Notes: a model not told the origin generated them from the sequence alone. 64,000 nucleotides of DNA from Azolla caroliniana (GCA_043228905.1 JBHGNT010000022.1:3162001-3226000), one strand, 5' to 3'; shown: positions 6,392 through 63,224, counted from the stretch's first letter. Numbers and translations are program-made.

Positions 6392-6413
6392 CTTCGTCCT
6401 CCCCTACTGCTCT

Positions 6414-6430: not shown

Positions 6431-6435
6431 AATGA

Positions 6436-12189: not shown

Positions 12190-12629
12190 ATGAGCATGTT
12201 TCATTTTGGTGACGAGTTGATTACGCAACACTATAAGTGGATGAGGTGGTCGAGTTGTTCTAAGGTGGTAGATTCAGGTTCTACTCCGGAAGGACGTGGG
12301 TTCAAAACCCACAATCATCATCGATGTAAAACGAGCATGTTTTGTTTTGGCGACATGTAGATTAGGCCACACGATAAATGGATGCGGTGGCCGAGTTGGT
12401 TTAAGGCGCTAGATTAAAGTTCTAGTTCGAAAGGGCGTGGGTTCAAATGATAAGTGGATGAGGTGGTCGAGCAACATGAATTGGATAAGTGGTTGAGGTG
12501 GCCGAGGTGGTCTAAGGCGCTAGATTAAGGGTCTAGTCTGAAAGGGCATGGGTTCAAATGCCACTATTATTATCGATGTAAAACGAAGATTCGTTTTGGT
12601 GATGAGTTGATTAGGGAACACGATAAGTG

Positions 12630-12710
12630 GATGCGGTGGCCGAGTTGGTCTAAGGCGCTAGACTAAGGTTCTAGTCTGAAAGGGCGTGGGTTCAAATCCC
12701 ACTCTCATCA
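12630..12710 (+). tRNA. tRNA-Leu(AAG), near-intact copy (one acceptor-stem mismatch)
   Basis: Full 81-nt cloverleaf with an A5C change; anticodon loop CTAAGGT. Confidence 0.5.
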
Positions 12711-13320
12711 TCGATGTAAAACTAGCATCTTTCGTTTTGGTGACGAGTTGATTAGGCAACACCATACGTGGATGAGGTGGCTAGGTTGTCCTAAGGCGCT
12801 AGAATCATGTTCTAGTCTGGAAGGGCATTTTGAACCCATAGTCATCATCGATGTAAAATAAGCATGTTTTGCTTTCATGACGAGTTCATTAGGCAACACG
12901 ATAAGTGGATGAGCTAGCCGAGTTGGTCGAAGGTGCTATATTACGGTTCTATTTTGAAAAGGCGGGGGTTCAAATCCAACTCTCATTATCATTGTAAAAT
13001 GAAGAAGCTTTGTTTTGGCGACGAGTTGATTAGGCAACAAGATAAGTGGATTAGGTCGCTGAGTTGGTCTAAGGCGATAGATTAAGGTTCTAGTCCAAAA
13101 GGGAGTGGGTTCAAATCCACTGTCATTATCGATGTAAAACAAACATGTTTCGTTTTGGCAAGGAGTTTATTAGACAACGGGATAAGTGGTTGAGGTGGTC
13201 TAATGTGCTAGATTAGAGTTCTAGTCCGAAAGGGCGTGGGTTCAAATCCCACTATTATCAACGATGTAAAATGAACATGTATTATTTTTGTAACGCGTTG
13301 ATTAGGCAACACGATAAGTG

Positions 13321-13401
13321 GATGAGGTGGCCGAGTTGGTCTAAGGCGCTAGATTCAGGTTCTAGTCCGAAAGGGCGTGGGTTCAAATCCCACTCTCATC
13401 A
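13321..13401 (+). tRNA. tRNA-Leu(CAG), structurally intact anticodon variant
   Basis: Acceptor GATGAGG/TCTCATC+A, D arm GCC..GGC, anticodon stem CTAGA/TCTAG with loop TTCAGGT, long variable arm, T arm GTGGG-TTCAAAT-CCCAC. Confidence 0.8.
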
Positions 13402-15887
13402 TCGATGTAAAATGGAGATGCTTCGTTTTCGAGACGCTTTGGTTAGGCAACAAGATAAGTAGATGAGGTAGCCGAGGTGGTCCAAGGCAGTAGATTTAGG
13501 TTACATACTCCGAAAGGGCATGGGTTCAAATCCACACTCATCATCAATGTAAAATGTACATGTTTTGTTTTTGCGACGAGTTGATTAGGCAACATCATAA
13601 GTGGATGAGGTTGCCAAGGTGGCCTAAGACACTATATTAAGGTTGTAGTCCGAAAGGGCTTGGGTACATATCCCACTCTCATCATCGATGTAAAAGAAAT
13701 ATATGGATTAGGCAACATGATAAGTGCATGAGGTGGCCGAGTTGGTCTAAGGTGCTAGATTAAGGTTCTAGTCCGAAAGGGCGTTGGTTCAAATCCCATT
13801 CTCATTACCGATGTAAGATGGACATGTTTTGTTTTGCTGACGAGTTGATTAGGCAATAGGATAAATGGTTGAGGCGGCCGAGGTGGTCTAAGGTGCTAGA
13901 TTAAGGTTCTAGTCCGAAAGAGCGTCGGTTCAAATCCCACTGTCATGATAGATGTGAAATGAACACGATAAGTGGATGCCGTTGTCTACGGTGCTAGATT
14001 AAGGTTCTAGTCCAAAATGGCGTGGGTTCAAATCCCACTCTCATCATGGATGTAAAATGAGCATGCCTCCATTTTGGCGAGGAGTTGATTAGGAATCATG
14101 AGAAGTGGATGACGTCTAATGTGCTAGATTAAGGTTCTAGTCCGAAAGGGAGTGGGTTCAAATTCTACTCTCATCATCGATCTAAAATGAACACTGTCCG
14201 TTTTGCGGACAACTTGATTAGGTAACACGATAAGTGGATAAGGTGGTTGCGTTGGTCTAAAGCGCTACATTAAGGTTCTAGTCCGAAAGGGCATGGGTTC
14301 AAATCCCACACTTATCATTGATGTAAAACGAACATGCTTTGTTTTGGTGAGGAGTTGATTAGGGAACATGACAAGTGGATGAGGTGCCCGAGTTGGTCTA
14401 AGGCGCTAGATTAAGGTTCTATTTCGAAAGAGCGTGGGTTCAAATCCCACTCTCATCATCAATGTAAAATGAACATGGTTCGTTTTGTCGACGAGCTGAT
14501 TAGGCAGCACGATAAGTGGATGAGGTGGCCGAGTTGGTCTAAGGTGGTAGAATAAGGTTCTAGTTTGGAAGGGCGTGGGTTCAAATCCCACTCTCATCAT
14601 CGATGTAATAATAAACTTGTTTCGTTTTGGTGATGCGTTGATTAGGTGACACGATAAGTAGATATGTTTTGGCGACGACTTGTAAACTGAACTAGTGGCG
14701 TTTTGGCGACGAGTTGATTAGGCACCACGATAAGTGGATGAGGTGGCCGAGTTGGTCTAAGGCACTAGGTTAAGGTTCTAGTCCGAAAGGGCGTGGGTTC
14801 AAATACCACACTCAAAATCGATGTATAATAAGCATGTATCGTTTAGGCGACGAGTTAATTAGGCAACACGATATATGGGTGAGGTGGCCGAGTTGGTCTA
14901 AGGTGCTAGATTAAGGTTCTAGTCCGAAAGGGCAAGTGGTCAAATCCCACTCTCATCAGCGATGTAAAGTGAACATGCTTCCTTATGGAAACGAGTTGAT
15001 TAGGCAACACGATAAGTGGATGAGGTGGTCTTCTTTGTCTAGATGGATGAATGTGGCCAAGTTCCCAAAAACCGACTGGCAATAAAATGGAACCAGTTGG
15101 TAATGGAATTGCAACCGACCGGTAAGCAACCCAGAACCGGCCGGTAATCAAATCAGAACAGGCCGGTAATGAAACAGGAAGTTGCCGATAATCAAAATGG
15201 AACTGTCTGGTAATCAAAATGGAACCGGCTGGAAATCAATTCGGAACCGGCCTGTAAGGCGGAAACCAAACCGGAATTAGCCGGCAACCAAGACGGATTG
15301 GATGGGTGGCGATCGAGACGGACAAATGATAGGATCATGTGGCTAATTAAAGTAAAGGAAAGGAAACTAAAGTAAAGGCCATGTGGACGGTCACATGCAA
15401 CTAAAAGAAAAAGCCATGCAACTAAAAGTGGTGTTGAGCGGCAATCTCAACCGGAGTCCGAGCCGGTTAGCTAGATCAAGCAATAACCGGAAGCCAAGTA
15501 GCAGCTAGTCTACTAGGGAGTTAATATCTCGTAGTTACTGTTAGACGCTCGTGTGAGCATTGAAGTACACCGTACTTCTGTAAATCCATATGGACTCGTA
15601 AAAGTGTTCACTGGACACATATATGATGTATAGACTGAGTAATATTTTTGAATTGAGTTTCTGTGTGCTCTCTCCCTCTCTGTCTCTCTCTCTCTCTCTG
15701 TCTCTCCCGCGTACTGTAAAGCTCTCCATTAAACTTGTTTTTTGTTTTCTATTGCTTCTGCATGCTATTTGTTTCTACATGGTATCAAAGCGCGAGGGTT
15801 GAGAACCTCTGCAGCCGACATTCGCTTTCGCAAGAAGAAAACTTAACCTTTGTAAAGAACAGAAAAAAAAAACAAATGTATAGAGGA

Positions 15888-18800
15888 ATGGCTAGCTCGC
15901 TCCCGGTGGAGAAGCTCGATAGATCCAACTACGCATCTTGGTCATACAAGATGCACCAGTACCTGCTTGGGCGTGGTTACTAGATCTATGTCGACGGAGC
16001 TAACGAGACAACACCTGATGCGGCACACAAGGACTTCCCGGTGTGGGAATAATTGGCAAGCAGAGTGATGTATTGCTTTGCATCCAGTGTCGGAGACCAG
16101 CTGCTGAGCCACGTCCGAGATGCCAAGACGCCAAAAGAGGCTTGGGGAAACCTCAAGAAGGTGTTCGCCGCAAGCACTATAGGCCGGAAGCTGCAACTCC
16201 GATAGGAGTTGAGCAATGTCCGACAGAAGGACATGTCGGTGGCTGATTACACAGTCTGAATCAAAGAGATCAGTGACTCGCTTGCCTCTATCAACGTTGG
16301 CGTGGCGTGGCTTGCCTAGAAGCGTAGCGTTGTGTAGATTGAAGATAACGTGAAAGTGAGGAAGCAATCACTGAGATTTTGGATGGAAGAGACGAAAGAG
16401 TAGAAATAGATAAATAGTGATCAACAAGATATGACAAGATAAGATATAGAATGATAATTGAAGCAATAAAAGAGATTTATAATTATTTGATGAAAGAGTT
16501 ACAAAAGTGGTTGTAAGCATCGTTGATCATTCGAACTTGGTCTCACAAGATAATCTCTCTTCTCTTTCTTGATAGTAGACCACAACAATCTTCACTTCAA
16601 TGTTTTGATGAAGATAAAGCTCGAACCACCTCCCTCTAGTTGAGAGTTGACCACCACGATCGCCAAGCTAGAGCTCCACCTTTATGTTGAGCTTCTTCCT
16701 TTCTTTCTCTATTTTATGGTATCTCTCATGTAATATATATTTGATTGATATCTCATATCTCTCTCCCTTTGATCTTCTCTTTCACTATTTAAATAGGTGT
16801 CCCCATGCATATGATGCATTGGAGGGTACAAGTCATGCATGTGATGCATGATCGCCATTTGGCGTTCATGCATTACATATGATGCATGATAGGCATCTCG
16901 CTCATTTGAGCTTTCATGTATGAAAAAATATATAGCATAAGAATAAACATGAAAATATAGTTTAAAAAATAAAGGACCTAGCCTAATGGTAGGTGTGTTG
17001 ACTTTGGTATATGAGGTTGTGGGTTTGAGTCTCTCAAATATTATTGAATACAACATGTAACATCATTTTTATATCATGAAGCAAATCCTTTATTTTATAT
17101 ATATTATTACTATAGAGTAAATGGTAAGATTTGAAAGTCATAGGGTGGGGTTATTGGTTCAACTCCTCTCTTGTTCGCGTAATATAATATATTTATATAT
17201 ATATTATTTTTCTTTACATATATATAACATTATCATATCTGTTGTTAATATTATCTTTATATATAAAACATTATCAAATGTTATTTTAGTTACGTATTTA
17301 TCTTATTGTAGACTTTTAATGTGAAACTTTCGTACTTCACGACAACGTCATAGTAGAGGAAGACGAGATGGTACATGTCTGTCTTGGGCGCCTAGCGTCT
17401 AAGTTCCGAGCTTTCCGGACAGCAGTATGTACGAGGGCGAATATGTTGTCATTTTTCGACTTACAGTTGATGCTCCTTGAAGAGGAGAAGCACGCCGGTG
17501 CGTCAACAAGTGCACCCACCGACAACCGGATGTTGTACACGGAGGCGGATCGGCCCTATGGGCGTGGTGGACGAGGCAGGTCCGCACGCAATGGAGGCGG
17601 CCGGCAAGGGCAAGCCCGACGACACAAAGATCGTGGCGACAGCAGTTCCAGGACCTCCACAACCAGGGGGAGTCAAGGTGGCGTCGGAGGCCGGCAAGAC
17701 AAATCCACCACAGAATGCTGGTACTGTGGTAAAAAGGGCCACAGAGTGGTTCTCCTTCTTGGAGAAACCGGAACAACCAGGAGTCGTCGAAACCAGAGAA
17801 GACACTCCACACCCAATTGTGCATATCGGAGAAGTCCCTTTGAGCCATGTCGGACAGAGGGGGAAGCTAATGAATGTATTACACATTCCGACTATCACGA
17901 AGAACCTGGTGCCGGTCAGACAGATCGTCGACCATGGAATGCAGGTGCGGTTTACACACCTCGGGCCAATTCAACAGTTATCTGCAGCAAAAAGGAATTC
18001 GGAGAGAATTCAGTTGCAGATACACACCGGAGCAAAACAGTGTGGCCGAGAGAAAGAACCGGTCGATCATCGACGCAGTAAGGGCAATGCTGGAAGAGAA
18101 GAGCATGCCCCATTTCTATTGGGCGGAGGCGGTTCGGACGGACGTCTACATCAGTGACAAGGTGTCCGCGCAGGAGTTGTATTTCGGATGCAAGCCGAAT
18201 TTGAGACACCTTGGGATATTCGGTAGCATTGCATATGTTCATGTACCGGATGAGAATCGAAGGAAGCTGGATGCTAAGTCGGAGAAATGCATCCTAGTCG
18301 GCTACTCGCATGAGCAAAAGGGGTACAAGTGTTATAACCCCCGGACGAAGCAGGTCCGAGTTAGCCGGGATGTAGAGTTTGATGAAACGGCATTATGGTA
18401 TGCCTTACCGACTTCTGACCCCCACCCGATACCGGAGGATGAGGCTAGTGAGCTTGAACCGGTCCAATTAGAAGACGAAGGGTCTGAGACTCAAGAAGAG
18501 AGTCCGGAATTGTTTCGGTTGAGTGGGCCGAACGAGCAACTGGGTCTGCCAGACCAGTCGGATGATGAACCGGCGAGTAGTGGAGACTCTGTTGTGCTCT
18601 CCCCGCGCAAGGAACCGAGGAGACAGTTCATGCGCAAAGAGAAGGGGAAGAAGAAGATGCTGGGATACGAAACCAGCAATGACGAGTTGGATCGGAGCGG
18701 ATCCAACTCCGAAAAGGAAGTTGGCGGATCTTCAGGAACGAAGACCGAACCGGCCAAGAAGGGCCTAAAACCGGGTAGTTGTGAGTTATGCCGGTCTTCC

Positions 18801-21020
18801 CGCCAAAAGGAACCCGTGAAGCGGTACAGATACAATGAGTACATGGCGCATCACTATGCCTACATGACCAAGGTGGTGGAGGTGCATGAGCCGGAAAGCT
18901 ACGCAGAAGCAGCAAAGGACACACATTGGCGTGCCGCTATGGAAAAAGAAATACGAGCACTTGATGCAAATGACACATGGGACCTAGTTGACCATCCCCG
19001 ACACTGTAAACCAATCGGATGTAAGTGGGTGTACAAAGTAAAGTACAATGTCGACGGATCGGTTAACTGGTACAAGGCCCGGTTAGTGGCAAAGGGATAC
19101 GCGTAGACCCATGGAATCGACTACGATGAGACCTTCGCTCCAGTAGCAAAGATGACGATGGTTCGTGTGGTGCTGGCGGTTGCTGCGGCAAGGGAGTGGC
19201 ATCTTCACCAGATGGACGTGAAGAATGCATTTCTTCAAGGAGATCTTGAAGAAGAGGTCTTTATGACCCAACCTCCCGGTTTCCAGACGGAGATGAACAA
19301 GTCAGCGGTATGCCGGCTGAAGAAGTCACTTTATGGCCTAAAGCAAGCCCCCCGAGCTTGGAGTGCGAAGATCACGCACCGGTTACGTAAGATGGGGTTT
19401 GCGGCCTCCAAGTCTGACTCTTCGTTCTTCATCCGGCAAGGTCCGGACGGTCCGGTTTGCATCCTGTTGTATGTTGATGATCTAGTCATCACCGAACCCA
19501 GACTTGATGAAATCAGCCAAGTCAAGTCCCAATTGTCGGAAGCATTTGAGATGAAGGACCTGGGGGACCTTCACTATTTCCTCGGGATCGAGGTGATCCG
19601 AACCCCCGATGGCATATTGCTCTCACAAAGACACTATGTGTTGAATATGTTGTACAAGTTCAGCATGACGGCATGCCGACCAATCTCCACACCCCTAGAC
19701 CGGAACAAGAAGCATCGTCCCGACTTCGGACCGACATGCAATGAGAAGCGCTTCCGGCAAATCGTCGGAAGCCTCATATATTTGACAATCACCCTACCCG
19801 AGATCAGTTATCTGGTCGGCGTTATCAACGAATATATGCAAAAGCCGACCGTGGAGCACCTTCTGTGCGCGCATCAAATTTTGCGATATGTGAGCGGCAC
19901 GAGGGACCGGGGACTGTTATACCGGCATGGTATAACCGAAGAGCTAGTCGGCTACACCGATGCCGATTGGGCCGGCGATGCATCGGATCGCCGATCCACC
20001 TTCGGCTATATGTTTTCCCTTGGTAGTGCAGCTGTTGCGGGGAGCAGCAAAAAGTACCCAACAATGGCCCTCTCGAGCACTGAGGCTGAATACTGGGGCG
20101 CTACCGTTGCCACCTGTGAAGCCATTGGGCTTCGGCGACTGTTGCAAGACCTGCGGATCGAAGTGTAGACCCCGATCCTGATCTACTGCGACAACATAAG
20201 CAGCATGCAGCTCACCAAGAACCTTGTATTCCATGCTCGCACAAAGCACATAGAAGTGCACTACCACTTCGTGCGTGAGTGTGTCTTGAGCGGTGAAGTC
20301 GAACTTCAGTATGTTCATACGGATCGGCAAGTTGCTGACATCTTCACCAGACCGCTTGGATTGGACAAGTTGCAGCACTTCACCGAAATGCTTGGTGTTC
20401 AGCATCTCGACATGCCACACTTGAGGGGGAGAATGGGCAAAGGCAAAGAAATTGTCGATTGCGCCAGTGAGGGAAGAACCGACAAAGGAGGAGACAAGAA
20501 GAAGAAAGGAGCCGAGTCGACAAAGGAAGTTGACACATCCGAACAAGTTGGAACAAGCGGCAGCGGCGGCATAGTCAAGAAGGACAGAGCCAACCGGAAG
20601 AAGAAGGTCAAGACCCAGACATGGTCCGATGTGGTGAAGGGCCTGGAAACAGAAGACGAATTGGGAGCAATCGATTCAGAAGAACCGGATCAATTCAAGA
20701 CCAAGAGGACAAGATGGCAACACAAGTCGACGCCAACACGAAGGAATCGGCGGGTCGACAAGCGCCGAAGTCACAGTAGCGAGGGAGCTGATTTGGGCCT
20801 GTTGAGCAGACAAGCTGACCGAGGAGGTCGAGATGCACAGAAACAGAGGGGTCGTGGCAAACGGAACCGGACGAACGAGGAGCGCGAGCAAGGCAGAGTG
20901 ATGCCAGAAGGAGCCCGGTGGATGGACCGGCTGCCATGGATACTGACACTACGATTCGACCTCAAGTTGAGCTTGAGGGGGAGTGTTGAGCGGCAAGCTC
21001 AATTGGATTTAGAAGGATGA
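15888..21020 (+). pseudogene. Copia gag-pol pseudogene (stops, internal deletions, solo-LTR insertion)
   Basis: Motifs in copia order: LDRSNYASWS (gag), CWYCGKKGH, YTPEQNSVAERKNR and RKLDAKS (INT), QMDVKNAFLQG and LLYVDD (RT), GYTDADWAG and RTKHIEVHYHFVRE (RH). Confidence 0.92.
16298..17344 (-). mobile_element. Solo LTR (1047 bp) of the ACGT-target group, inside the copia gag
   Basis: Minus strand starts TGTCGTGA. TSD ACGT at 16294-16297 / 17345-17348. Removing it restores the gag frame SLASINVIVEEDEM. Confidence 0.85.
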
Positions 21021-21254
21021 GCCCGATAGGTGAGCCGGTGAGCTGGGGAGCCGGTTAGCTGGATCAAGCAGTAACCGAAAGCCAAGTAGCAGCTAGTCTA
21101 CTAGGGAGTTAATATCTTGTAGTTACTGTTAGACGCTCGTGTGAGCATTGAGGTACACCGTACTTCTATCAGTCCATATGGACTTGTATAAAAGTGTTCA
21201 CTGAACACATACGATGTACAGATTGAGTAATATTTTTCAATTGAGTTTCTATGT

Positions 21255-21292
<38 letters not shown>

Positions 21293-21879
21293 GTAATGTA
21301 AAGCTCTCCATTAAACCTGTTTTCTATTTTCTGTTTTCTATTGCTTCCGCACGCTATTTGTTTCTACAAGTGGGCATGCAAAGTAACATTGAAGGCTATG
21401 ATTAATGGAGAACTGCATATAAATTCCATTTTTTATCCTACACATCCTCTCTCCATTTTTTATTTTATTTTCCTTCTTAGATTCCCTTATCTCACTGGGC
21501 CATAACACTCATAAACTCTAATTTTCCATATAGAAGCCATATCTCTCATAAAGCCTAATTTCCTTACGGAATCCAAAAACCCTAATTTTCCCTACGGAAG
21601 CCATATCTCTCAAAACCCCTAATTTTTCTTTTCTATTAATCTTAGTAAACCTAAAACTTATGAATCCCAAGATCGGGACATATTGTAATTTCTTTTCCTT
21701 TGTTAATGAAAATTATTAAATTTTCTCGTTTTCGTTAATTGTTAAAAGTATAAACACACGAATCTGATATCCTCTGGTCGGAGGCCCCGGGGTCCTGCCT
21801 CAAGTTCACGTATCCTCGTCATATTTTCGCGACATCTTTGGTGAACCCGACGTGAAACAAGGCGGCAAGAGGATATCTC

Positions 21880-23882: not shown

Positions 23883-25232
23883 AACAATCAAAAGAGGAAC
23901 CTCACTACAATTGGCACATACCGGTGGATGTGTAGGTTTGGTGGGGGTGAATGTCGTGTGGTTTTTCACACACGATATGAAAACTATGTAAAAATAATAA
24001 TAAAATAAAATGGACAACTACATATCAAGATAGGTGGACATGAAGTTTGAGAAGATAGGGAAAATAGAACTATGATTTATCCCACATAGATAGGAAACTT
24101 AAGGCCCTGACTATATAAGCACATTGAGATCCCTTAGTTTTCATTTGTGTTAAAAGCACTTTGGCCACTTTGTCTAGATGGATAAATGTGGCCAAGTTCC
24201 CAAAAACCGACTAGCAATAAAATGGAACCGGTTGGTAATGGAACTGAAATTGGCCGATAAGCAAACCGGAACCGGCCGGTAAGCAAACTGGAATCGGTCG
24301 GTAATCAAATCGGAACCGGCCGGTAAGCAAACTGGAACCGGTCAGTAAGCAAACCGGAACCTGTCGGTAATCAAAATGGAACCGACCGGTAAGCAAACTG
24401 GAACTGGCCGGTAATCAAAATGGTACCGGTCGGTAAGCGAATTGAAATCGGATGGAAATCAATTCAAAACCGGCCGGTAAGCCGGAAACCAAACTGAAAT
24501 CGGCTGGGGAGCAAATTGGAATCCGCTTGTAAGCGAAACCGGAACCGGCCGGCAATCAAATCAGAACCGGACTAGACAGACGCAGACCGAACAGATTGGC
24601 TGGGCGGCCATCGAGACAAATAGATGATAGGATAATGTGGCTAAGTAAAGGCCATGTGGACGGTCGCATGCAACTAAAAGAAAAAGCCATGGAACTAAAA
24701 ATGGATGCAAAGTAGAGGCCATGTAACTAAAAGTGGGCATGCAAAGTAACATTGAAGGCTATGATTAATTTTAGTAGAGGCCACTTTTAGTTCCATGGCC
24801 TCTACTAAAAGTAGAGGCAATGGAACTAAAAGTGGGCATGCAAAGTAACATTGAAGGCTATGATTAACAGAGAACTGCATATAAATTCCATTTTTTTTCC
24901 TACACATCCTCTCTATATTTTTTATTTTCTTTTCCTTCTTAGCTCCCTTATCTTATGGAAGCCATAACACTCAAAAACCCTAATTTTCCCTACGAAAGCC
25001 ATATCTCTCAAAACCCCTAATTTTTCTTTTCTATTAATCTCAATAAACCTAAAACTTCTGAATCCCAATCTTGGGACATATTGTAATTTCTTTTCCTTTA
25101 TTAATGAAAATTATTAAATTTTCTCCTTTCTCTTAATTATTAAAAGTATAAACGCACGAATCTGATATCCTCTGGTAAGAGGCCCCGAGGTCCTGCCTCA
25201 AGTTCACGTCTCCTCGTTGTATTTTCGCGATA

Positions 25233-44441: not shown

Positions 44442-44458
44442 TGGTGAACCCGACGTGA
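44442..44458 (+). promoter_or_regulatory. tRNA-Trp primer-binding site
   Basis: TGGTGAACCCGACGTGA, 4 nt after the LTR; identical to the PBS at 21839 and at 6414-6430 (minus). Confidence 0.85.
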
Positions 44459-50840: not shown

Positions 50841-53800
50841 ACGTGTTCAAATCCCACTATCATCATCAATGTAAAATGAACATGCATTGGTCTAGTGACG
50901 GTTGATAAGACAACACGATAAGTGGATGATGTGGCAGATTTGGTCTAAGGCGCTAGATTAAGGTTCTAGTCCGAAAGGGCGTGGGTTCAAATCCCACTCT
51001 CATTATCAGTGTAGAATGAACATGTTTCGTTTTGGTGATAGATTGATTAGGCAAGACGCTAAGTGGATGAGGTGGCCGAGGTTGTCAAAGGCAATAGATT
51101 AAGCTTCTAGTCCAAAAGGGCATGGGTTCAAATCCCACTCTTATCATCAATGTAAAATGAACATACGTTGTTTTGGTGACAAGGGTATTATGGAACACGG
51201 TAAGAAGCTAAGGTGGCTCAGTTTGTGTAAGGCACTAGATTAAGGTTCTAGCACAAAAGGGTGTGGGTTGAAATCCCATTGTTATAACTAATGTAAAATG
51301 AACAGGCGTCGTTGTCAGGACAATTGGTTAGGAAACACGATTAGTGGATGAGTTGGCCTAGTTTGTGTAAGGCGCTAGATTAAGGTTCTAGTCCGAAGGT
51401 GCATGGGTTCAAATCCCACTCTCATCATTGATGTATATTAAGGATACATCGTTTTGGCGACGAGTTAATTAGGCAACATGATATATGGATGACGTGGTCA
51501 AGTTGGTCTAAGGTGTTAGATTAAGGTTCTAGTACGAAAGGACCTGTGGTCAAATCGCACTCTCATTATTGATGTAATGTGAACATGCTTCGTTTTGGTT
51601 CTACTCCGAAATGTGTAGGTTCAAATCCCCTCTCATCATCGGTGTAAAATGAACAAACTTCGTTTTGGTGACGGGTTGATTAGCCAACACGATAAGTGCA
51701 TGAGGTGGCCGAGTTGTCCTAAGGTTCTAGATTAAGGTTCTAGTCCGAGAGGGCGTGGCGTGTGTTCAAATCCCACTGTCATCATCGATATAAGATGAAC
51801 ATGCTTCGTTTTGGGGACGAGTTGATTCCCAACATGAGAAGTGAATGAGGTTGTCTAAGGTGCTAGATTAAGGTTCTGTTACAGGAGGGCATGGCTTCAA
51901 ATCCCACTCTCATCATCCATGTAAAACGAAGATGTTTCATTTTGGCGATGAGTTGATGAGGCAACACAATAAGTGGATGAGGTGGCCAAGTTGTTCTATG
52001 GTACTAGATTAACATTCTAGTACGAAATGTCATGTGTTCAAATCCCACTGTCATCATCGATGTAAAATGACCATGTTTCATTTTGGCGACGAGTTGATTA
52101 GGACCCACCATAAGTGGATGAGGTGGCTGATTTGTTCTAACACACTTGATTCAGGTTCGAGTCCGGAAGAAAGTGGGTTCAAAATCCACAGTCATCATCG
52201 ATGTAAAACGAACATGTTTTGTTTTAGTGATGAGTTGATTAGGCAACACGATAACTTTAGGAGGAGGCCGAGTTGGTCGAAGGCAGTATATTTACGTCTT
52301 ATTCCGAAACGACGTGTGTTCAAATCCCACTCTCATTATTGATGTAAAATGAACAAGCTTTGTTTTGGCGACGAGTTGATTAGCCGACACGATAAGTGCA
52401 TGAGGAGGTGTAGTTGGTCGAAAGTGGTAGATTAAGCTTTGGGGCTGGGTTCAAATCCCACTCTCATCATCGATGTAAAATGAACATGCTTGGTTTCGGC
52501 AACAAGTAGATTAGATAACATAGGAAATGGATCAGGTTGCGCTAGATTAAGGTTGTAGTCCGAAAGGGTGTGGGTTCAAATCACACTCTCATCATCTATT
52601 TAAAATGAATATCCTAGATTAAGGGACGAGTTGATTAGGCAACAGGAGAAGTGGTTAAGGTGGCCCAGGTGGTCTCACCCGCTAGATTAAGGTTCTAGTC
52701 CAAATGAGCGTGGGTTCAAATCACAATATCATTATTGATGTAAAACGAGCATGCTTCGTTTTGGTGAGAAGGTGATTAGGCAACATGATAAGCGGATCAC
52801 GCGGCCGAGTTGGTGTAATCCCACTCTCATCATCAATGTAAAATGAACATGTTTTGTTTTGGGGACGAGTTGATTAGGCAACACGAGAAGTGAATGCGGA
52901 TGTCTAAGGTGCTAGATTAAAGATCCGTATTCTAGTACGAAATGGCGTGCGTTCAAATTCCACTGTCATTCTCGATGTAAAATGACCATGTTTCATTTTG
53001 GCAACGAGTTAATTAGGCAACACGATATATGGATGACGTGGCCGAGTTGGTCTAAGGTGTTAGATTAAGGATCTAGGCCGAAAGGACATGGGGTCGAATC
53101 CCACTCTCATCATCGATGTAAAGTTAACATGCTTCGTTTTGGCGACAAGTTGATTAGGCAACATGATAAGTGGATGAGGTGGCTGAGTTGGTCTAAGGTT
53201 AGAACCTAGATTAAGCTTCTAGTTCGAAAACGCATGGGTTCAAATCCCAGTCTCATCATCGGTGTAAAATGAACATGGTTTGTTTTGGCGATAGGTTGAT
53301 TAAGCAACACAATAAGTGGATGAGGTGGCTGAGTTGTTCTAAGATGCTAAATTAAGGTTTTAGTTCGAAAGGGCGCGTGTTCAAATTCCACTCTCATAAT
53401 CGATGTAAAATAAACATGCGTTGTTCTAGTGATGGTTGATTTCCACAACACAATAAGTGGATGAGGTGGCCGAGTTGGTCTAAGGCGCTAGATTAAGGTT
53501 CTAGTCCGAAAGGGCGTGGGTTCAAATCCCACTCTCATCATTGGTGTAGAATGAACATGCTTCGTTTTGGCGACGGACTAATTAGGCAACACGCTAAGTG
53601 GATGAGGTGGCCGAGGTTGTCAAAGGAAATAGATTAAGCTTCTAGTCCGAAAGGGTATGGGTTCAAATCCCACTCTTATTGTCAATGTAAAATGAACATA
53701 CGTCGTTTTGGTGACAGGGGTATTACGCAACACGGTACGAAGCTGAGGTGGCTAAGTTGGTGTAAGGCACTAGATTAAGGTTCTAGTAAAAAAGGGTGTG

Positions 53801-54122
53801 GGTTGAAATCCCACTGTTATAACTGATGTAAAATGAACATCCGTCGTTGTAGGGACGATTGATTAGGAAACACGATTAGTGGATGAGGTGGCCTAGTTGG
53901 TCTAAGCCACTAGATTAAGGTTCTAGTCTAAAGGTGTGTGGGTTCAAGTCCCACTCTCATCATCGATGTATAATAAGGATACATACATGATATATGGATG
54001 ACGTGGCCGAGTTGGTCTAAGGTGTTAGATTAAGGTTTTAGTCCGAGAGGGCGTGTGGTCAAATCCCACTCTCATCATCGATGTAAAGTGAACATGCTTC
54101 GTTTTGGATCTAGTCCGAAAAC
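50841..54122 (+). repeat. tRNA-Leu tandem array block D (~23 monomers)
   Basis: Same monomer; resumes the T arm that was interrupted at 43786. Confidence 0.95.
53460..53540 (+). tRNA. tRNA-Leu(AAG), intact consensus copy
   Basis: Perfect 81-nt type II cloverleaf, anticodon loop TTAAGGT, intact A and B boxes, TTTT 25 nt downstream. Confidence 0.85.
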
Positions 54123-57100
54123 TGTTACCCCGTACGAGTTGTACGGAGAGTCAAGTGTGATGAGCGAGGGTCGAATATTATCATGATGATGTTGTATATG
54201 TGTAGGGAACATAAATGTAATTGTGAGTTGATATGTATGTGAACACATGCACACGTGTGTGCATGTGGAGGGATACGATGAGGTGTGAGTGAGTGTCCAG
54301 TATGAATGCTCTATGGGGCTTACACCCCTTTGTAACTACCCCCTCTTGTACTATTTAACCCCTTATGGGGAATGAATGAAGAATGAACCATTTTCTCTCC
54401 TAATCTCTCTCTTGTCATCCCTCTTTCTCTCTCTCTCTCCCCCTCAACGTTGAATCCCCTTGGGAGGGGGGTGGAGCCATTCTAGGCACCACCCCCCACC
54501 CCGCAATGCTTCTCTATGCTTCTCTATACGATCTCTCATCATCATGCCCGTCATCTCCACCATTACACAATGTCTATCTTCATCATCAATCATCTTTATC
54601 ATGATTATCATCCTTGACCCTAACCCTAAAACGTACAACACCTTTTGGCGACCACTACGGCGACCCCCCTTTGGAAACGGAGTCAAAGAATGATACGCGG
54701 TGATGAAGGCCATAGCGAAGGCCATAGCGACATATTTGTGTGAGTGCAGGAAATGACAATGCGATGAAAGAATTCATGAATGGAAACGATGTTTGTGCAA
54801 GGTTGCGATTGGTGTCCATGTACGTGTTTCCGAATGCGGTTAGTGACAATGTGCGTGTTCGAATGCGTGGTGCAAGATGCACGGCTGGAAAAACAGCGAC
54901 GCAGAGGGAACCGGTGCCAGCACGACCGGTAAGAGAAGCCCACCTGAAGACTGCGGTGGAAGACGCAGTGTGTGGAGCGGAGGCCGGCAGGATGTGCTGC
55001 GAATGCATGGGCTATGGTTCCAGAAGAAACAACGCAAAGAGAGTGGAACCGGAATCGGAACAAGAACCAAAGTTGGTTATCACCGAAGGGGCATCAAAGA
55101 CAGAGAAGAAGATGCAGACGTGGACCAAACATCGACAACCAGAAAAAGGGACATCACAACAAACACACACATGCAAAGACAGCAGGACCAACGAGGGTGA
55201 CTCGACAACAACATTGACGGACAAAAGGCTCAGGGCGCCAGACGAAGACAACGAGAGATGAAAACGGTTTCTGTCGGAGATACAGCCGGACAGAGACGGA
55301 AAGGGCCAGAGACCCCAAAAGCCATGAGCAAACCCTAGGTCGAACAGCGGGACAAATGGCCGAACGACGACGACGCTATACGGCAGAGGCCGGACAGCGG
55401 CGGCGAATGGCAACCCGAAACCCTACACAACAGTCAAAGAGTGGCCGAAGAGCAGCGGCCAGATTGTGTGCAGAGCGGGCAAGCGACGGACGAGGTTGGA
55501 CTATGACGAACCGGCAGAGACGACAACAGAAACGGAAACAGGGCTGGATGGAAAGGCGCCGGACAAGACCGAACAACTCGAGTGAAGGACGAATGGCGAT
55601 AGAAACGACCGGAAAGCCAACGACCGAACGGAGAACGGTGATGAAGACGGAAGATGACGGGACGGTTGCAGAGATGGAGAGACAACCAGAGTGGTAACGG
55701 TCGGCACAGTGACAAAGCAATGACCAGAACGGACCGGACAACCGGACAAACGACAAAAACGACCGGAAAGACGAAGGGACGACCGACCACAACAGTGAGG
55801 GAGACAGGGACGAAGCGGCCGAACAACGATAGTTGGAGCAGTGCCCCGATTGCGGCCGAACAGTGGCGGCCAACAAACGAACATACAATCGACAATGATG
55901 AAAGAGAAGAAGAAGATGAAGAAGAGAAGAAGGAAGGGAAGGAAAAGAAGAAGCACAAGAGGTGTTGGCGGCCAGACAACCGATGGTCGTAAAGAATAGA
56001 GACATCTGGACAGAGATGGCAGACCATAGAATGGCCGGACAGGGCCGACAGAGACGGCAATGACGCCAAACGATGGCAGAACAGGAACGGAAAGCGGCGG
56101 CTGGACAGCCAAGTCCGAGCATCGGAGGACACCGATGGCAACGGCGATGGACCCAGAGACGGAAACAAAAAAAAAAAAAAACAGAGACCGAGACGGAGAT
56201 GAACAGAGAAGGCCGTACAAACACACAACGACACACAAAAGCAGAGCGTGACAGCCACGGACAATGGACATAGCATAGCGGTGGTGAAAGAAGGAAGAAA
56301 AACGAGAAGAGAGGATGAAGATAAAAAGAAGAGAAAGATGAAACAGAATCAGAAAAGAAGAAGAAGAAACAGACAACGATAAGAGAGAGAAAACGCAAAC
56401 AGAAAACAAGAATAAGAAGAAACAAGAGAGGAAGAAGAAAAAGCAAGAAAGAAAACACAAAAAGAGAGGGGGGGGGCATGTAACAAATATTGAAACCCTG
56501 AGGGTACTGAATGAAATTGTCAAAATTCGAGGGTATGTAATAAAAATTTTAAAACTTGAGGGCACCGACGAAATTGTAAAAACTCATCCACATAGAGAAA
56601 TGGATGTGATCAACAACGACAACTCACACAAAATTAAAGGAAGATACACATACACACAACATTTTTGGACCCATGACGAAGTTCGTAAGTCGACAGAACG
56701 AGAATGTTCGTGTCGCGGAAGATTTGCTGACCAACAAAGATGGTCGAGTCAAGCACTCCGATCGAGGGAGTCGATCGTTGAAAGGACCGATGGAAGTTCC
56801 GGTCGAAGAAATATCATCATCAAGGCATGTGGGATCGACGTGCAACGCACTTTCCCACGGGCGTGCCATATGTGTTACCCCGTACGAGTTGTACGGAGAG
56901 TCAAGTGTGATGAGCGAGGGTCGAATATTATCATGATGATGTTGTATATGTGTAGGGAACATAAATGTAATTGTGAGTTGATATGTATGTGAACACATGC
57001 ACACGTGTGTGCATGTGGAGGGATACGATGAGGTGTGAGTGAGTGTCCAGTATGAATGCTCTATGGGGCTTACACCCCTTTGTAACTACCCCCTCTTGTA

Positions 57101-57390
57101 CTATTTAACCCCTTATGGGGAATGAATGAAGAATGAACCATTTTCTCTCCTAATCTCTCTCTTGTCATCCCTCTTTCTCTCTCTCTCTCCCCCTCAACGT
57201 TGAATCCCCTTGGGAGGGGGGTGGAGCCATTCTAGGCACCACCCCCCACCCCGCAATGCTTCTCTATGCTTCTCTATACGATCTCTCATCATCATGCCCG
57301 TCATCTCCACCATTACACAATGTCTATCTTCATCATCAATCATCTTTATCATGATTATCATCCTTGACCCTAACCCTAAAACGTACAACA
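54123..57390 (+). mobile_element. Very young non-autonomous LTR element with no recognisable gag or pol
   Basis: LTRs at 54123-54640 and 56873-57390 (518 bp, no difference found by eye). TSD AAAAC on both sides. PBS-like TGGCGACCAC at 54646-54655 (tRNA-Arg-like). Confidence 0.92.
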
Positions 57391-60300
57391 AAAACCCGTG
57401 GGTTCAAATCCCACTCTCATCATTGTGGTAAAATGAACTTCGTTTGGCAACGGGTTCATTAGCCAGCACGATAAGTGCATGAGGTGGCCGAGTTGTTCTA
57501 AGGTTCTAGTCCGAGAGGGCGTGTGTTCAAATCCCACTGTCATCATCGCTGTAAGATGAACATGCTTCGTTTTGGGGACAAGTTGATTCGGCAACATGAG
57601 AAGTGAATGAGGTTGTCTAAGGTGCTAGATTAAGGTTCTGTTACAGGAGGGTATGGCTTCAAATCCCACTCTCATCATCCATGTAAAACGAAGATGTTTC
57701 ATTTTGGGGATGAGTTGATGAGGCAACACAATAAGTGGATGAGGTGGCCGAGTAGTTCTATGGCACTAGATTAACATTCTAGTACGAAATGGCGTGCGTT
57801 CAAATCCCACTGTCATCATCGATGTAAAATGACCATGTTTCATTTTGGCGACGAGTTGATAAGGACCCAGCATAAGTGGATGAGGTGGTCGATTTGTTCT
57901 AACACGCTTGATTCAGGTTCGAGTCCGGAAGAGAGTGGGTTCAAAACCCACATTCATCATCGATGTAAAACGAGCATGTTTTGTTTTAGCGATGAGTTGA
58001 TTAGGCAACACGATAAGTGGAGGAGGTTGCCGAGTTGGTCAAAGGCGGTATATTTACTTTCTAGTCCGAAAGGACGTGTGTTCAAATCCCACTCTCATTA
58101 TTGATGTAAAATGAACAAGCTTTCTTTTGGCGACAAGTTGATTAGCCAACACGATAAGTGCATGAGGAGGTGTAGTTGGTCGAAAGTGGCAGATTAAGCT
58201 TCGGACTGGGTTCAAATCCCACTCTCATCATCAATGTAAAATGAACATGCTTCGTTTCGGCAACGAGTAGATTAGGCAACACGAGAAGTGGATCAGGTTG
58301 TCTGAGGTGCTAGATTAAGGTTGTAGTCCGAAAGGGCGTGGGAGTGCTTGAGGTGGCGGAGGTGGTCTCAGGCACTAGATTAAGGTTCTATTACAAATGA
58401 GCATTGGTTCAAATCCCACTGTCATTATTGATGTAAAACGAGCATGTTTCGTTTTGGTGACAAGATGATTAGGCAACATGATAAGCGGATCAGGTGGCCG
58501 AGTTGGTGTAATCTCACTCTCATCATTGATGTAAAATGTGCATGCTTCGTTTTGGGGACGACTTGATTAAGCAACATGATAAGTGGATGAGGTGGCCAAG
58601 TTGGTCTAACTTGCTCGATTAATGTTCTAGTCCAATAGGGCGTGGTTTCAAATGCCACTCTCAGCATAGATATAAAATGAATATGCTTGTTTCGGCAACT
58701 AGTGGATTAGGCAACAAGATAACTGGTTGAGGTGGCCAAGGTGGTCTAAGGCGCTAGATTAAGGTTCTAGTACGAAATGGCGTGCCTTCAAATCCCACTG
58801 TCATTATTGATGTAAAACGAGTATGTTTCGTTTTGGGGATGAATTGATTAGGCAATAGGATAAGTGGTTGAGGTGGCCGAGGTAGTCTAAGGTGCTAGAT
58901 TAAGGTCCTAGTCCAAAAGAGCGTCGGTTAAATTACCACTCGCATCATAGATGTGAAATGAACACGTGTTTTTTTGGCGACGCGTTGATTAGGCAACACA
59001 TTAAGTGGATGACGTTGTCTACGGGGCTAGATTAAGGTTCTATTCCGAAACGGTGTGGGTTGAAATGCCACTCTAATCATTGTTGTAAAATGAACATACT
59101 TCATTTTGGCGAGGATGATTAGGAATGACGAGAAGTCGATGACGTTGTTTAAGGTGCTAGATTAAGGTTCTAGTCCGGAAGGGAGTGGGTTCAAATTCCA
59201 CTCTCATCATCGATCTAAAATGACCACAGTTCGTTTTGTGGATCAGTTGATTAGGCAACACGATAAGTGGGTGAGGTGGCCGAGTTGTTCTAAGGCGCTA
59301 GGTTAAGGTTCTAGTCCGAAAAGGCTTGGGTTTAAATCTCATTCTCCTCATCAATGTAAAATGAACAAGCTTCGTGTTGGCTATGAGTTGATTAGGCATC
59401 ATGATAAGTGGATGAGGTGGTCGAGTTGGTCTAAGGCGCTATATTAAGGTTTCAGTCCGAAAGGGCGTGGATCCAAAGCCCACTCTCCACATCGATGTAA
59501 AAGGAACATGTTTTGTTTTGTTGATGAGTTGCTTAGGCAACACGATAAATGAATGACGTGGCAGAGTTGGTCCTAAGTGCTAGATTAAAGTTCTAGTCCG
59601 AAAGGATGTGGGTTCAAATACGACTCTCATCATCGATATAAAAATAAACATGTTTCGTTTTGGCGAGGAATTGATTAGACAACGGGATAGGTGGCCGAGC
59701 TTTGGTGACGAGTTGTAAAATGAAGAAGCTTCGTTTTGGCAACGAGTTGATTAGGCAGCACGATAAGTAGATGAGGTGGCGACGGGTTGATTAGCCAACA
59801 CGATAAGTGCATGAGGTGGCCGAGTTGTTCTAAGGTTCTAGCTTAAGGTTCTAGTCCAAAAGGGTTGAGTTCAAATCCCACTCTCATCACCGATGTAAGA
59901 TGAACATGCTTTGTTTTGGCGACGAGTTGATTAGGTAACACGAGAAGTGGATGAGGTTGTCTAAGGTGCTAGATTAAGGTTCTTGTCGAAGAGGGCATGG
60001 GTTCAAATCTCACTCTCATCATCGATGTAAAACGAAGATGTTTCATTTTGGTGATGAGTTGATGAGGCAACATGATAAGTGGATGAGGTGGCCGAGTTGT
60101 TCTAAGGTGCTAGAAGGTTCTAGTCTGAATGGGCGGGGGTTCAAATACAACTCTCATGATTGATGAAAAATAAACAAGCTTTGTTTTGGTGACAACTTGA
60201 TTAGGCAACAAGATAAGTGGATGAGGTCTCCGGGTTGGTTTAAGGCGATAGATTAAGGTTCTAGTCCAAAAGGGTGTGGGTTCCAATCTATTCTCAATAT

Positions 60301-61540
60301 CGATATAAAACGTACATTTTTCATTTTGGCAAGGAGTTGATTAGACACCAGGATAAGTGGTCGAGGTGGTGTAATGTGCTAGATTGAAGTTCTAGTCTGA
60401 AAGGGTCTGGGTTCAAATCCCACTCTTATCATCGATGTAAAATGAACATGTGTCATTTTTGTGATGCGTTCATTAGCCAACATGATTAGTGGATGAGGTA
60501 GTCGAGTTGGTTGAAGGCGGTAGAGTTCGGTTCTAGTAAGAAAGGTTGTGGATTCAAATCCCACTCTCATCATCAATGTAAAAAAAGCATGTTTCATTTT
60601 GGTGACGAATTGTTAGGCAACATCATATGTGGATGAGGTTGCCGAGGTGGCCTAGGACAATAGATTAAGGCTCTAGTTTGAAAACGCGTGGGTTCAAATC
60701 CCACTCTCATCATTGGTGTAAAACGAACATGCTTCGTTTTGGCGACGGGTTTATTAGGCAACACGATAGGTGGATGAGGTGGCCGAGGTTGTCAAAGGCG
60801 ATTAAGGTTCTGGTCCGAAAGAGCGTGGGTTCAAATCCCACTCTCAGCATCAATGTATAATAAACCTGCATCGTTTTGGAGACGAGTTATTAGGCAATAC
60901 AATATCTGCATGAGGTGGCCGAATTGGTCTAAGGATCTAGATTAAGCTTCTAGTCCGAAAGGGCATGTGGTCAAATCCCACTCTCATCATCGATGTAAAC
61001 TGAAGATGCTTCGTTTTGGCGACGTGTTGATTAGGGAACACAATAAGTGGATGAGGTGGCCGAGTTGGTGTAAGGTTAGACCCTAGATTAAGGTTCTAGT
61101 TCGAAAACGTGTGGGTTGAAATCCCACTGTCATCATCGGTGTATAATGAACATGCTTTCGATTTTGCGACGGGTTGATTAGCCAACACGATAAGTGGATG
61201 AGGTGGCCGAGTTGTTATAAGACGCTAGATTAAGGTTCTACTCCGAAAGGGCCTCTGTCCAAATCCCACTCTCAACATCGATGTAAAATGAACAAGCGTC
61301 GTGTTGGTAACAGTTAAGTGGATGAGGTGGCGGAGTTGGTCTAAGGCGCTAGATTAAGGTTCTAGTCCGAAGGGGCGAGGGTTCTAATCCCACTCTCATC
61401 ATCGATGTAAAATGAACATGCTTTGTTTTGGCGACGGGTTCATTTGGGAAGACGATAAGTGGATGAGGAGGCCGAGTTGGTCTAAGCTGCTACTTTAAGG
61501 TTCTACTCCGAAAGGGCATGTGGTGAAATCCTACACTCAC
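57391..61540 (+). repeat. tRNA-Leu tandem array block E (~30 monomers)
   Basis: Same monomer. Confidence 0.95.
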
Positions 61541-63158
61541 TTCACTTCTTTTACCCGATCCTTCAAAACCTTGAGGTGGAAACCGATGCAAGAGATTATG
61601 CTATAGGTGTTGTCTTATATCAAGATGGTAAACCAATAGCATTCGAGAGTAAGAAACTTGATTCTGTTCAATCTCGGTCTACCGGTCAAGAAAAGGAATT
61701 ATTTGCAGTTATACATGTGCTCAAAACATGGCGTCATTATCTTTATGGAAATCTTTTTATGGTAACTACAGACCACGAGTCCTTGAAATATTTTTGTGAC
61801 CAACAAGACCTGAAAGGTCGTAAGGCACGATGAGCTAATCTCATCCAAGACTTTGAGTTTTCCATACGATATCATAAAGGTTCCATGAACACTGTCGCTG
61901 ATGCACTAAGTCGCATCTGTGAAGTTAACATACTTAGCTTCACTGAAATGACATCATATTTTTATGATCACCTTCGAGGAAAGTATCATGATGACAGTTA
62001 TTTCGCAAAATATTGGGCAAGAGTTGAGTCTGAAACAAACACCACCACATCCTCGAAGGAATACTTCCACATTGCTAACGGTCTACTCTACCGTAATGGG
62101 AAGGTTTGTGTTCCAGATTTACCCGAGGTCAAAAAGAGGATTCTTTTTTAATGCCATGATACACCCTCAACAGGGCACCCTAGAATACATCGTACACTCG
62201 TTCTCATCTCCACACAATTTTATTAGCCTAAGATGCGTCCTGACATACATAGTTATGTGACTAAATGTCACCAATGTCAGGTTAACAAAGCCGAGCGACT
62301 TAAAGCCGCAGGACTTTTACATCCCTTGGACATTTTGAATAATAAGTGGGAAAGTATATCCATGGATTTTATTGTTAGCCTTCCTCGCACCCAAAAAGGT
62401 CATGATGCAATCTGGGTTGTGGTTGATAGACTAACTAAAATTGCCCAATTTATTGCTACTAAAACCACGGTAACAACTCCTGAATTGGCTTACCAATTCC
62501 TTGATGAGTTATTTCATTTTTATGGGTTACCGATGGATATTGTGAGTGATCGAGATGCAAAATTTACTACTGACTTTTGGACACAAGTCTTCAAGAAGTT
62601 AGAAATGATGTTGAGCATGAGCTCCACGTATCATCCTCAATCGGATAGATAGATAGAACGAGTAAATCAAATTATTGAGGACATGCTTCGAGCATACGTT
62701 GGGTGCAAAACCAACAAAATGGGAAAACGTTATCTCCCAATTTTTGAGTTTGCTTATAACAGCTCTAAGCATATGTCGACGGGATATAGTCCTTTTATGT
62801 TGATGTATGGTTCTCAGCCATGAGCCCCAATTTGATGTTAATATACATCATAATGAGTTGCGAAGTACGCAAAACTTTCTTCGGGATATGCAAGATATGT
62901 TGCATATTGCACGAGGTAATATAAAAACAGCTCAAGATAGAGTGCGTTTTTATGCCGATCATCATAGGAAACCTCGTGTATTCAACCCTGGATAGAAGGT
63001 ATTTTTACATGTACCTCACAATTCTAAGACATTGTCTAAGGGTAAGTGCGCTCCACGGTTTTGTGGATCTTTTATAGTCCTCAAACGCATTGGATCATCG
63101 GCCTATCGTCTCGCTCTTCCCGATGGCATTGAAATTCATCCAGTTTTTGATGTCAGTC
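61541..63158 (+). pseudogene. LTR-less RNase H-integrase fragment of the same chromovirus family as 7718-12136
   Basis: Closely matches ~10243-11870 (TDARDYAIG, WESISMDF, GHDAIWVVVDRLTK). Both ends fuse directly to tRNA monomers. Confidence 0.9.
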
Positions 63159-63159
63159 C

Positions 63160-63224
63160 TTCTGGGGACGGTTGATTAGGCAACATGATAAGTGGATGAC
63201 GTGGTTGAGTTGGTCTAAGGCGCT
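63160..63224 (+). repeat. Partial tRNA-Leu monomer
   Basis: Spacer plus 5' half of the tRNA up to TAAGGCGCT. Confidence 0.85.

What the first reader, a model, noticed from the sequence alone, without database searches (positions are those of the whole stretch)
12190..63224. Satellite DNA whose monomer is a complete tRNA-Leu(AAG) gene
Seen: about 22 kb in five large blocks of head-to-tail ~141-bp units (81-nt cloverleaf plus 60-nt spacer), roughly 160 copies by length, all on one strand. TSD-flanked insertions show that blocks B to E were once continuous. Only a few copies are intact (13321, 36247, 53460). Established: plant tandem tRNA clusters are known (Arabidopsis Pro and Tyr-Tyr-Ser), and centromeric satellites are often near nucleosome length. 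Inference: a tRNA gene was converted into a heterochromatic, possibly (peri)centromeric satellite. It supplies dense Pol III/TFIIIC boxes that could organise chromatin or yield tRNA fragments. This is the strongest candidate for an undescribed system here.
Basis: partly seen in the sequence, partly recalled or inferred. Interest (0 to 1): 0.85.

Follow-up and report, generated by a model that had tools for sequence, protein, structure and literature searches.

The report
Leucine tRNA gene turned satellite, twice
About 160 head-to-tail copies of one leucine tRNA gene fill 22 kb of this plant DNA and are mutating as fast as the spacer between them, and the very same gene forms a second array with an unrelated spacer in related DNA, so this is likely a silenced gene array decaying into satellite DNA rather than a working chromatin or centromere system.

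Summary
The array is real: five blocks, 22.2 kb, about 158 units of 141 bp, all on the + strand. The consensus is an intact tRNA-Leu(AAG) gene plus a 60-bp spacer with a T4 terminator. Target-site duplications show that blocks B-E were once one array. Copies average 78% pairwise identity. The tRNA part changes at the same rate as the spacer (10.9 vs 11.2 changes per site), with no excess of compensatory changes and heavy CpG decay; 4 of 146 copies are within two changes of the consensus. New here: a 248-bp tandem family (L001) has an identical 81-nt tRNA consensus but an unrelated spacer. Its flanks dominate in a related organism and also occur in this one. Best reading: a 5S-rDNA-like Pol III gene array, likely spread by unequal crossing-over, methylated and now drifting. 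A centromeric or chromatin role is untested and not favoured. Tandem tRNA clusters and tRNA-derived satellites are known; I found no report of one tRNA gene founding two satellite families. The host is a non-seed plant, likely a fern. The scan had no look-alike of this sequence, but noted other tRNA-bearing satellites in other genomes.

The parts
12185..15030 (+). Array block A, about 20 units; joined on the left to a Gypsy 3' LTR truncated after about 50 bp
25233..29215 (+). Array block B, about 28 units
29856..37867 (+). Array block C, about 57 units
43758..43786 (+). 29-bp piece of one tRNA unit left between two insertions, in register with blocks C and D
50841..54122 (+). Array block D, about 23 units
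57391..61540 (+). Array block E, about 29 units; starts with a segment 83-99% identical, window by window, to part of block D
63160..63224 (+). Partial monomer, cut by a Copia-type LTR; the array may go on beyond the window
53460..53540 (+). The only copy identical to the tRNA-Leu(AAG) consensus; T4 terminator at 53565-53568
36247..36327 (+). Near-intact copy, one change, all stems paired; same lineage (F1) as 53460 and 25961
25961..26041 (+). Copy with two changes, one stem pair broken; lineage F1
13321..13401 (+). Near-intact copy whose single change turns anticodon AAG into CAG (still leucine)
15031..25232 (.). Nested retroelement stretch between A and B, with a Copia element at 15460-21368 (LTRs 88% alike); no target-site duplication links A to B
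29216..29855 (.). 640-bp solo-LTR-like insertion, TG...CA ends, 5-bp duplication with one mismatch
37868..43757 (.). 5.9-kb insertion with terminal inverted repeats (15 of 17 match) and an 8-bp duplication; likely a non-autonomous DNA transposon
43787..50840 (+). Gypsy element, LTRs 97.7% alike, 4-bp duplication
54123..57390 (+). 3.3-kb LTR element, LTRs 518 of 518 identical, 5-bp duplication; very recent insertion
61542..63158 (+). Gypsy RNase H-integrase fragment, 91% identical to 10243-11866 at the other end of the array

Best explanation
This is a tandem array of one complete tRNA-Leu(AAG) gene with its own flanks that likely expanded by unequal crossing-over, was likely silenced by DNA methylation, and now mutates as fast in the gene as in the spacer, so it behaves as satellite DNA. 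Shown: the unit is gene + 28-nt trailer ending in T4 + 32 nt of upstream DNA, laid out like a 5S rDNA repeat (Pol III gene plus spacer; comparison recalled). Also shown: irregular multi-monomer duplications, transposon insertions into a once continuous array, and a second 248-bp family on the identical gene. Inferred: each family was founded by an intact copy of the gene, amplified at DNA level, and lost constraint because the cell needs only a few such genes. One or two copies may still be transcribed.
For: Changes mapped on a tree of 146 monomers: 10.9 per site in the tRNA, 11.2 in the spacer, matched in every site class (CG 24.1 vs 25.0, other C/G 13.9 vs 14.6, A/T 5.6 vs 5.9). The column-based test agrees (p=0.10). 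Double changes that keep a stem pair: 33 seen, 30.7 expected. CG sites are 28-30% diverged against 6-8% at A/T sites; C>T and G>A make 589 of 1,559 changes. Identity is flat at 0.77-0.79 for lags 1-29, while 5- and 6-monomer blocks recur at scattered places. L001 holds a 248-bp tandem family whose tRNA consensus differs at 0 of 81 positions, with no significant spacer homology (p=0.12-0.48). Arabidopsis clusters are methylated and silent (PMC7544208 abstract) and modelled as unequal crossing-over under drift (PMC2886086 abstract).
Against: There are more near-perfect tRNA bodies than neutral decay predicts: 3 of 106 copies with at most 1 change against 0.036 expected, with no such excess in the spacer (0 of 116 vs 0.13). 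These form only two independent lineages, and per-copy tests (p=0.0012 and 0.0032 among 108) do not pass Bonferroni. Contigs laid from run X1 show CpG variants at 10-15% against 32-42% in the window. That may mean a more homogeneous, possibly live array elsewhere, or only alignment bias. Methylation, silence and chromosomal position were not measured.
Confidence: 0.7

Rival explanations
1. A live multigene family under birth-and-death evolution: intact, transcribed copies are kept by selection and repeatedly re-seed arrays, which keeps the gene fixed while spacers are replaced. The window would show an old, abandoned part of it.
For: Identical tRNA consensus in two families with unrelated spacers. 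Excess of near-perfect bodies with normally diverged spacers. The lone change at 13321 keeps leucine identity. The Arabidopsis SYY cluster is reactivated in root tips (PMC12308677, title and start of abstract).
Against: Identical bodies with unrelated flanks are normal for dispersed tRNA paralogues (established knowledge), so two separate amplifications explain as well. In lineage F1 the copies have gone on to collect 22 tRNA and 22 spacer changes. The higher tRNA identity in L001 is biased, because L001 was found by an exact tRNA match.
Confidence: 0.15
2. A (peri)centromeric or boundary satellite that works through nucleosome-length spacing and TFIIIC boxes.
For: 141-bp unit, close to a nucleosome core. 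LTR-rich surroundings, including a chromodomain-type Gypsy (chromodomain read by eye). tRNA genes act as barriers at fission-yeast centromeres (recalled).
Against: Boxes are not conserved above background. The sister family has a 248-bp unit, so length is not conserved. Monomers are only 78% alike and interrupted by several insertions. Plant tDNAs are reported depleted at centromeres.
Confidence: 0.09
3. The unit came from a retroposed element (tRNA-derived SINE, or a tRNA carried in an LTR) that expanded in place, as proposed for newt PolIII/TAN or reptile SINE satellites.
For: Block A starts inside a Gypsy 3' LTR. Another LTR in the window carries a degenerate tRNA-like sequence.
Against: The gene is canonical and complete, has no CCA, SINE body or simple-repeat tail, and the unit runs 32 nt past the terminator into upstream DNA. 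Contig depth falls from about 400,000 to 16,000 at the LTR-array junction in X1, and in X12 the LTR continues into other sequence, so the Gypsy family does not carry the unit.
Confidence: 0.04
4. Assembly artefact.
For: None found.
Against: Copies differ by about 22%. Runs of other studies hold the same words and junction-spanning pieces.
Confidence: 0.01

Closest known systems
Plant tandem tDNA clusters: Arabidopsis 27x tRNA-Pro and 27x Ser-Tyr-Tyr, maize 28x tRNA-Ile, moss 'Cpu' clusters including Ala-TGC/Leu-CAG (PMC2886086 abstract and section 17; PMC7544208 abstract; PMC11700998 and PMC12652284 passages)
   Same: Single-strand tandem copies of a complete tRNA gene; unequal crossing-over; likely methylated and silent; some copies non-functional.
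   Different: Here at least 158 copies in one window and roughly hundreds to thousands genome-wide (rough depth estimate), against 28 (PMC11700998) or up to 110 non-identical genes per cluster (PMC12652284). The spacer is only 60 bp, almost all copies are broken and evolve neutrally, and a second family uses the same gene.
tRNA-related tandem repeats of amphibians (Xenopus OAX, Rana/PolIII, newt PolIII/TAN) and SINE-derived satellites of squamates (PMC12054243 passages; PMC10702118 abstract)
   Same: Satellite monomers that contain Pol III, tRNA-type sequence.
   Different: Those are proposed to come from retroposed, SINE-like units. Here the monomer is a canonical gene with both genomic flanks.
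Benslimane et al. 1986, small plant tandem repeats proposed to come from a tRNA gene ancestor (title only, from a reference list; paper not held)
   Same: The idea that a plant satellite descends from a tRNA gene.
   Different: From recall, that rested on partial similarity. Here the consensus is a fully paired tRNA that scores 57-58 bits with Rfam, so the path is directly visible.
5S rDNA arrays and 5S-derived satellites; Entamoeba tRNA arrays (recalled, not read here)
   Same: Pol III gene plus spacer in tandem; conserved gene, replaced spacers across array types.
   Different: 5S and Entamoeba arrays keep the gene intact across copies. In this window the gene is not constrained.
Extreme tRNA counts in the fern Azolla filiculoides: 7,848 genes and more than 10,000 tRNA-like sequences (PMC13578239 section 6; PMC13437025 Table S1 row; PlantRNA 2.0 passages)
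   Same: Arrays like this one would inflate counts in the same way; 43-51 calls arise in this one window.
   Different: Those papers put the excess down to genome duplication, repeats or growth rate; the passages read name no tRNA satellite. That this window is from that genus is not established.

Membership tests
Plant tandem tDNA homocluster | At least 5 genes of one isotype within 5 kb | tested here: met
   Block A alone has 11 ARAGORN calls in 2.8 kb; anticodon AAG in 112 of 146 copies
Plant tandem tDNA homocluster | Most copies intact with conserved Pol III elements (a section heading of PMC7544208) | tested here: not met
   Both boxes in 18 of 146 (own motif definitions); T4 in 119 of 146; 4 of 146 within two changes of consensus
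Plant tandem tDNA homocluster | DNA-methylated and transcriptionally silent | not testable with these tools
   Only the mutational trace of CG methylation is seen
Satellite DNA | Long head-to-tail array of a short monomer, with higher-order duplications | tested here: met
Satellite DNA | Monomer evolves without coding constraint; fast turnover between species | tested here: met
   spacer covered in runs of organisms A and B, no contig laid on it in X11 (C) or X12 (D), where the tRNA has other flanks
Satellite DNA | High genome-wide copy number | tested here: inconclusive
   Summed contig depth suggests several hundred 141-bp units; the tool warns this is no copy number
Centromeric satellite | CENH3 occupancy | not testable with these tools
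   no ChIP data, no whole genome
Centromeric satellite | Long, homogeneous array (recalled feature) | tested here: not met
   78% mean pairwise identity; 35% of the window; broken by insertions
SINE-derived satellite | Degenerate tRNA head plus unrelated body and A-rich or simple-repeat tail | tested here: not met
   canonical gene, no tail, upstream flank included
SINE-derived satellite | Dispersed TSD-flanked copies of the same unit | not testable with these tools
   whole genome not held

The most novel reading that the evidence does not exclude
In this plant lineage one intact tRNA-Leu(AAG) gene is a recurrent seed of satellite DNA: transcribed copies are preferentially re-amplified with whatever flank they carry, giving successive satellite families (248 bp, then 141 bp) that replace each other between species while the gene stays fixed. 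Such arrays would account for the thousands of 'tRNA genes' counted in some fern genomes.
Probability: 0.25. Interest if true: 0.72.

Novelty: new variant of a known kind. Interest (0 to 1): 0.45.

Why it matters
It is an unusually clear case of a gene becoming a satellite, with the ancestor readable from the consensus and two families for comparison. That makes the old proposal of tRNA-born plant satellites, and the library model of satellite turnover, directly testable. It also warns that very high tRNA gene counts in non-seed plants may be decaying arrays, not translational adaptation: 43-51 copies in this one window pass standard detectors, while only about 4 look intact.

Tried and rejected
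No whole genome is held, so genome-wide copy number, position and dispersed copies were not tested. Expression: no RNA holder was listed and the one RNA-guess run laid, X13, gave 0 contigs. This is no evidence either way. An exact 54-nt tRNA pattern found nothing in viral contigs and one contig in metagenomes. Homology between the two spacers was tested three ways and was not significant (p=0.37, 0.48, 0.12), although two short words are shared in order, so origin of the 141-bp unit by deletion from the 248-bp unit is neither shown nor excluded. A regular higher-order period was not found. The idea that the array is part of the Gypsy LTR was rejected. The large clusters F, G and J drift toward the consensus by construction, so I redefined groups by position. 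MFE folds do not all give the cloverleaf, as usual for tRNA, and were not used. Host: the ESM Atlas gave only broad taxa. The best named near-full-length Copia hit is from the fern Adiantum nelumboides at 39% identity, and the Gypsy protease search gave 5 unnamed hits, so the genus is not established. Ten literature searches (only the top listings were seen) found no description of a tRNA-Leu satellite in ferns or mosses. Supplements that could bear on this were unreadable: the main supplementary PDF of PMC6786969 and the tables of PMC12652284.

Full report
Observation. One monomer used as an nhmmer query gives 170 hits, all on +, in five blocks totalling 22,232 bp or about 158 units; TRF gives period 141. 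ARAGORN tRNAs and Rfam passes 43. I aligned the 146 hits that cover at least 110 positions and dropped 24 partial ones. The consensus is an 81-nt tRNA-Leu(AAG) and a 60-nt spacer. All 23 stem pairs are canonical and the discriminator is A. The spacer reads as a 28-nt trailer ending in T4, then 32 nt of upstream DNA with a CAA and no clear TATA box (read from the sequence). The unit is thus a whole Pol III transcription unit, cut at DNA level.

History of the locus. B and C are separated by a 640-bp solo-LTR-like piece with a 5-bp duplication (one mismatch). C and D are separated by a 5.9-kb inverted-repeat element with an 8-bp duplication and a Gypsy element with a 4-bp duplication, with 29 bp of tRNA left between them. 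D and E are separated by a 3.3-kb element with identical LTRs and a 5-bp duplication. The monomer register runs on across each. No such link joins A to B. Block A begins about 50 bp into a Gypsy 3' LTR, and block E ends at a fragment of the same Gypsy family (91% identical), followed by a partial monomer. The Gypsy family does not itself carry the unit: depth in X1 drops about 25-fold at the junction, and in X12 the LTR continues into other sequence.

How the copies evolve. Mean identity to the consensus is 87% in the tRNA and 86% in the spacer; mean pairwise identity is 78%. With changes mapped on a tree, the rates are 10.9 and 11.2 per site and match within CG, other C/G and A/T sites. Permutation tests find no significant extra conservation of the tRNA (p=0.10) or of its A and B boxes (p=0.36). 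Both boxes survive in 18 of 146 copies, with 20 expected by independence (my own motif definitions). Compensatory double changes are at chance level (33 vs 30.7). CG sites change about four times as often as A/T sites, the usual trace of methylation (inference). Neighbours are no more alike than distant copies, but a 5-monomer block recurs six times, whole or nearly so, and a 6-monomer block three times. That points to irregular segment duplication rather than ongoing homogenisation.

Against a purely neutral reading. Three of 106 copies with a full tRNA have at most one change (0.036 expected), with no such excess in spacers. They are two lineages: F1 (53460, 36247, also 25961) and 13321, whose one change is AAG to CAG. 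Per-copy tests give p=0.0012 and 0.0032 among 108 copies, not significant after Bonferroni. Other F1 copies have decayed. A few live genes, or conversion from live genes, are possible but not shown.

Beyond the window. No genome is held. Laid on one monomer, X1 contigs cover gene and spacer. Summed depth peaks near 64,000 on the gene and is about 20,000 just inside the 141-bp spacer, against about 30-55 for single-copy-like contigs. That suggests roughly 1,000-2,000 gene bodies and several hundred 141-bp units; this is rough, since the tool warns that summed depth is no copy number. X12 (organism D) has depth up to 33,000 on the gene against 7-17 for long contigs, none on the spacer, and one recurring other flank. 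A metagenome contig found by an exact tRNA pattern (L001) shows what that flank is: a tandem array with a unit of about 248 bp. From 9 of its 10 units (one 74-bp unit dropped), the tRNA consensus differs from the window's at 0 of 81 sites, the 167-bp spacer has no significant homology to the 60-bp one, and copies are again decayed (tRNA 85-99%, spacer 82-92%). By eye, the X12 loose ends match the L001 spacer ends almost letter for letter, and 15-16 X1 contigs carry a diverged form. So both families coexist in organism A, while no contig of X12 reached the 141-bp spacer. X11 (organism C) has the gene with yet other flanks.

Host. Copia and Gypsy elements fill the gaps. The best named near-full-length relative of the Copia protein is from a fern, at 39% identity; the Gypsy protease has no named relative. 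A non-seed plant, likely a fern, is an inference. Earlier scan notes on this genome disagree between fern and moss.

Mechanism. Shown: unit anatomy, neutral rates, segment duplication, insertions, two families on one gene. Inferred: an intact gene was duplicated in tandem (unequal exchange or a small circle), spread by unequal crossing-over, was methylated as surplus copies are in Arabidopsis (PMC7544208, abstract), and lost constraint. It works like a 5S-type gene array that has become a satellite. It fails membership of the functional clusters on intactness and of centromeric satellites on homogeneity; CENH3 binding is untested.

Comparison with print. Plant tRNA clusters are described as compact, under 5% of genes in most land plants, and excluded from centromeres (PMC13437025: passages, section 10, supplement hits; a Leu-TAG homocluster of 9 is listed for Brassica oleracea). 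The longest angiosperm cluster in one survey has 28 genes (PMC11700998 passages); another reports up to 110 non-identical genes per cluster and many clusters in a moss (PMC12652284 passages). Drift by unequal crossing-over is modelled for Arabidopsis (PMC2886086, abstract and section 17). tRNA-related tandem repeats are known in amphibians (PMC12054243 passages), and SINE-derived ones in reptiles (PMC10702118 abstract). A tRNA origin for plant satellites was proposed in 1986 (title only). Azolla filiculoides is credited with 7,848 tRNA genes and over 10,000 tRNA-like sequences, explained by duplication and repeats (PMC13578239 passages, section 6, supplement row; PlantRNA 2.0 passages). Its genome paper looked for putative centromere repeats of 185-195 bp (PMC6786969 passages), and its main supplement was unreadable. 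Other plants also have thousands of calls, such as 6,475 in Ipomoea nil (PMC7678280 passages). Ten searches (listed under Tried and rejected) found no report of this satellite or of one tRNA gene founding two families.

Verdict. Real, and a new variant of a known kind. The functional claims are unsupported; the repeated use of one intact tRNA gene as a satellite monomer is the part worth following. Interest 0.45.

Noticed in passing
window 3550-7075 and 43787-50840: Two LTR elements with related LTR ends and the same primer-binding site both sit in a 4-bp duplication of the same sequence, ACGT; a further LTR end near 3425 is followed by it too. This suggests a sequence-specific integrase.
   Followed up: partly
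window 4001-4074 and 6887-6960: Both LTRs of a young element (99% alike) carry a degenerate tRNA-Thr(TGT)-like sequence, called by ARAGORN only at a relaxed threshold that also gave many likely false calls; a second tRNA-like stretch lies near 7207-7285.
   Followed up: partly
window 7600-12190 and 61542-63158: The same chromodomain-type Gypsy family abuts both ends of the array. Its summed contig depth is about 10,000 times single-copy in X1, so it is very abundant and the pairing may be chance.
   Followed up: partly
window 54123-57390: A 3.3-kb LTR element with identical 518-bp LTRs, a different primer site and no Pfam domain in the three frames tested: a very recent, likely non-autonomous element.
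   Followed up: no
window 37868-43757: Inverted-repeat element with an 8-bp duplication, filled with CATA-rich and 187-201-bp internal repeats.
   Followed up: no
run X11, contigs laid on window 36247-36320: Two contigs of 165-168 nt at depth 478 and 738 (others 17-37) carry part of the tRNA plus about 100 nt of other sequence: possibly a third repeat family in organism C.
   Followed up: no
window 36276 and 36290: In X1, X11 and X12 a minority of contigs show T>C and A>G at these two partner positions of the anticodon stem, consistent with a compensated isodecoder elsewhere in these genomes.
   Followed up: no
array-wide: Drift creates spurious anticodons (34 of 146 copies are not AAG), which ARAGORN labels Arg, Ile, Val, Phe, Pro or Pyl; such arrays will corrupt anticodon tables.
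   Followed up: yes
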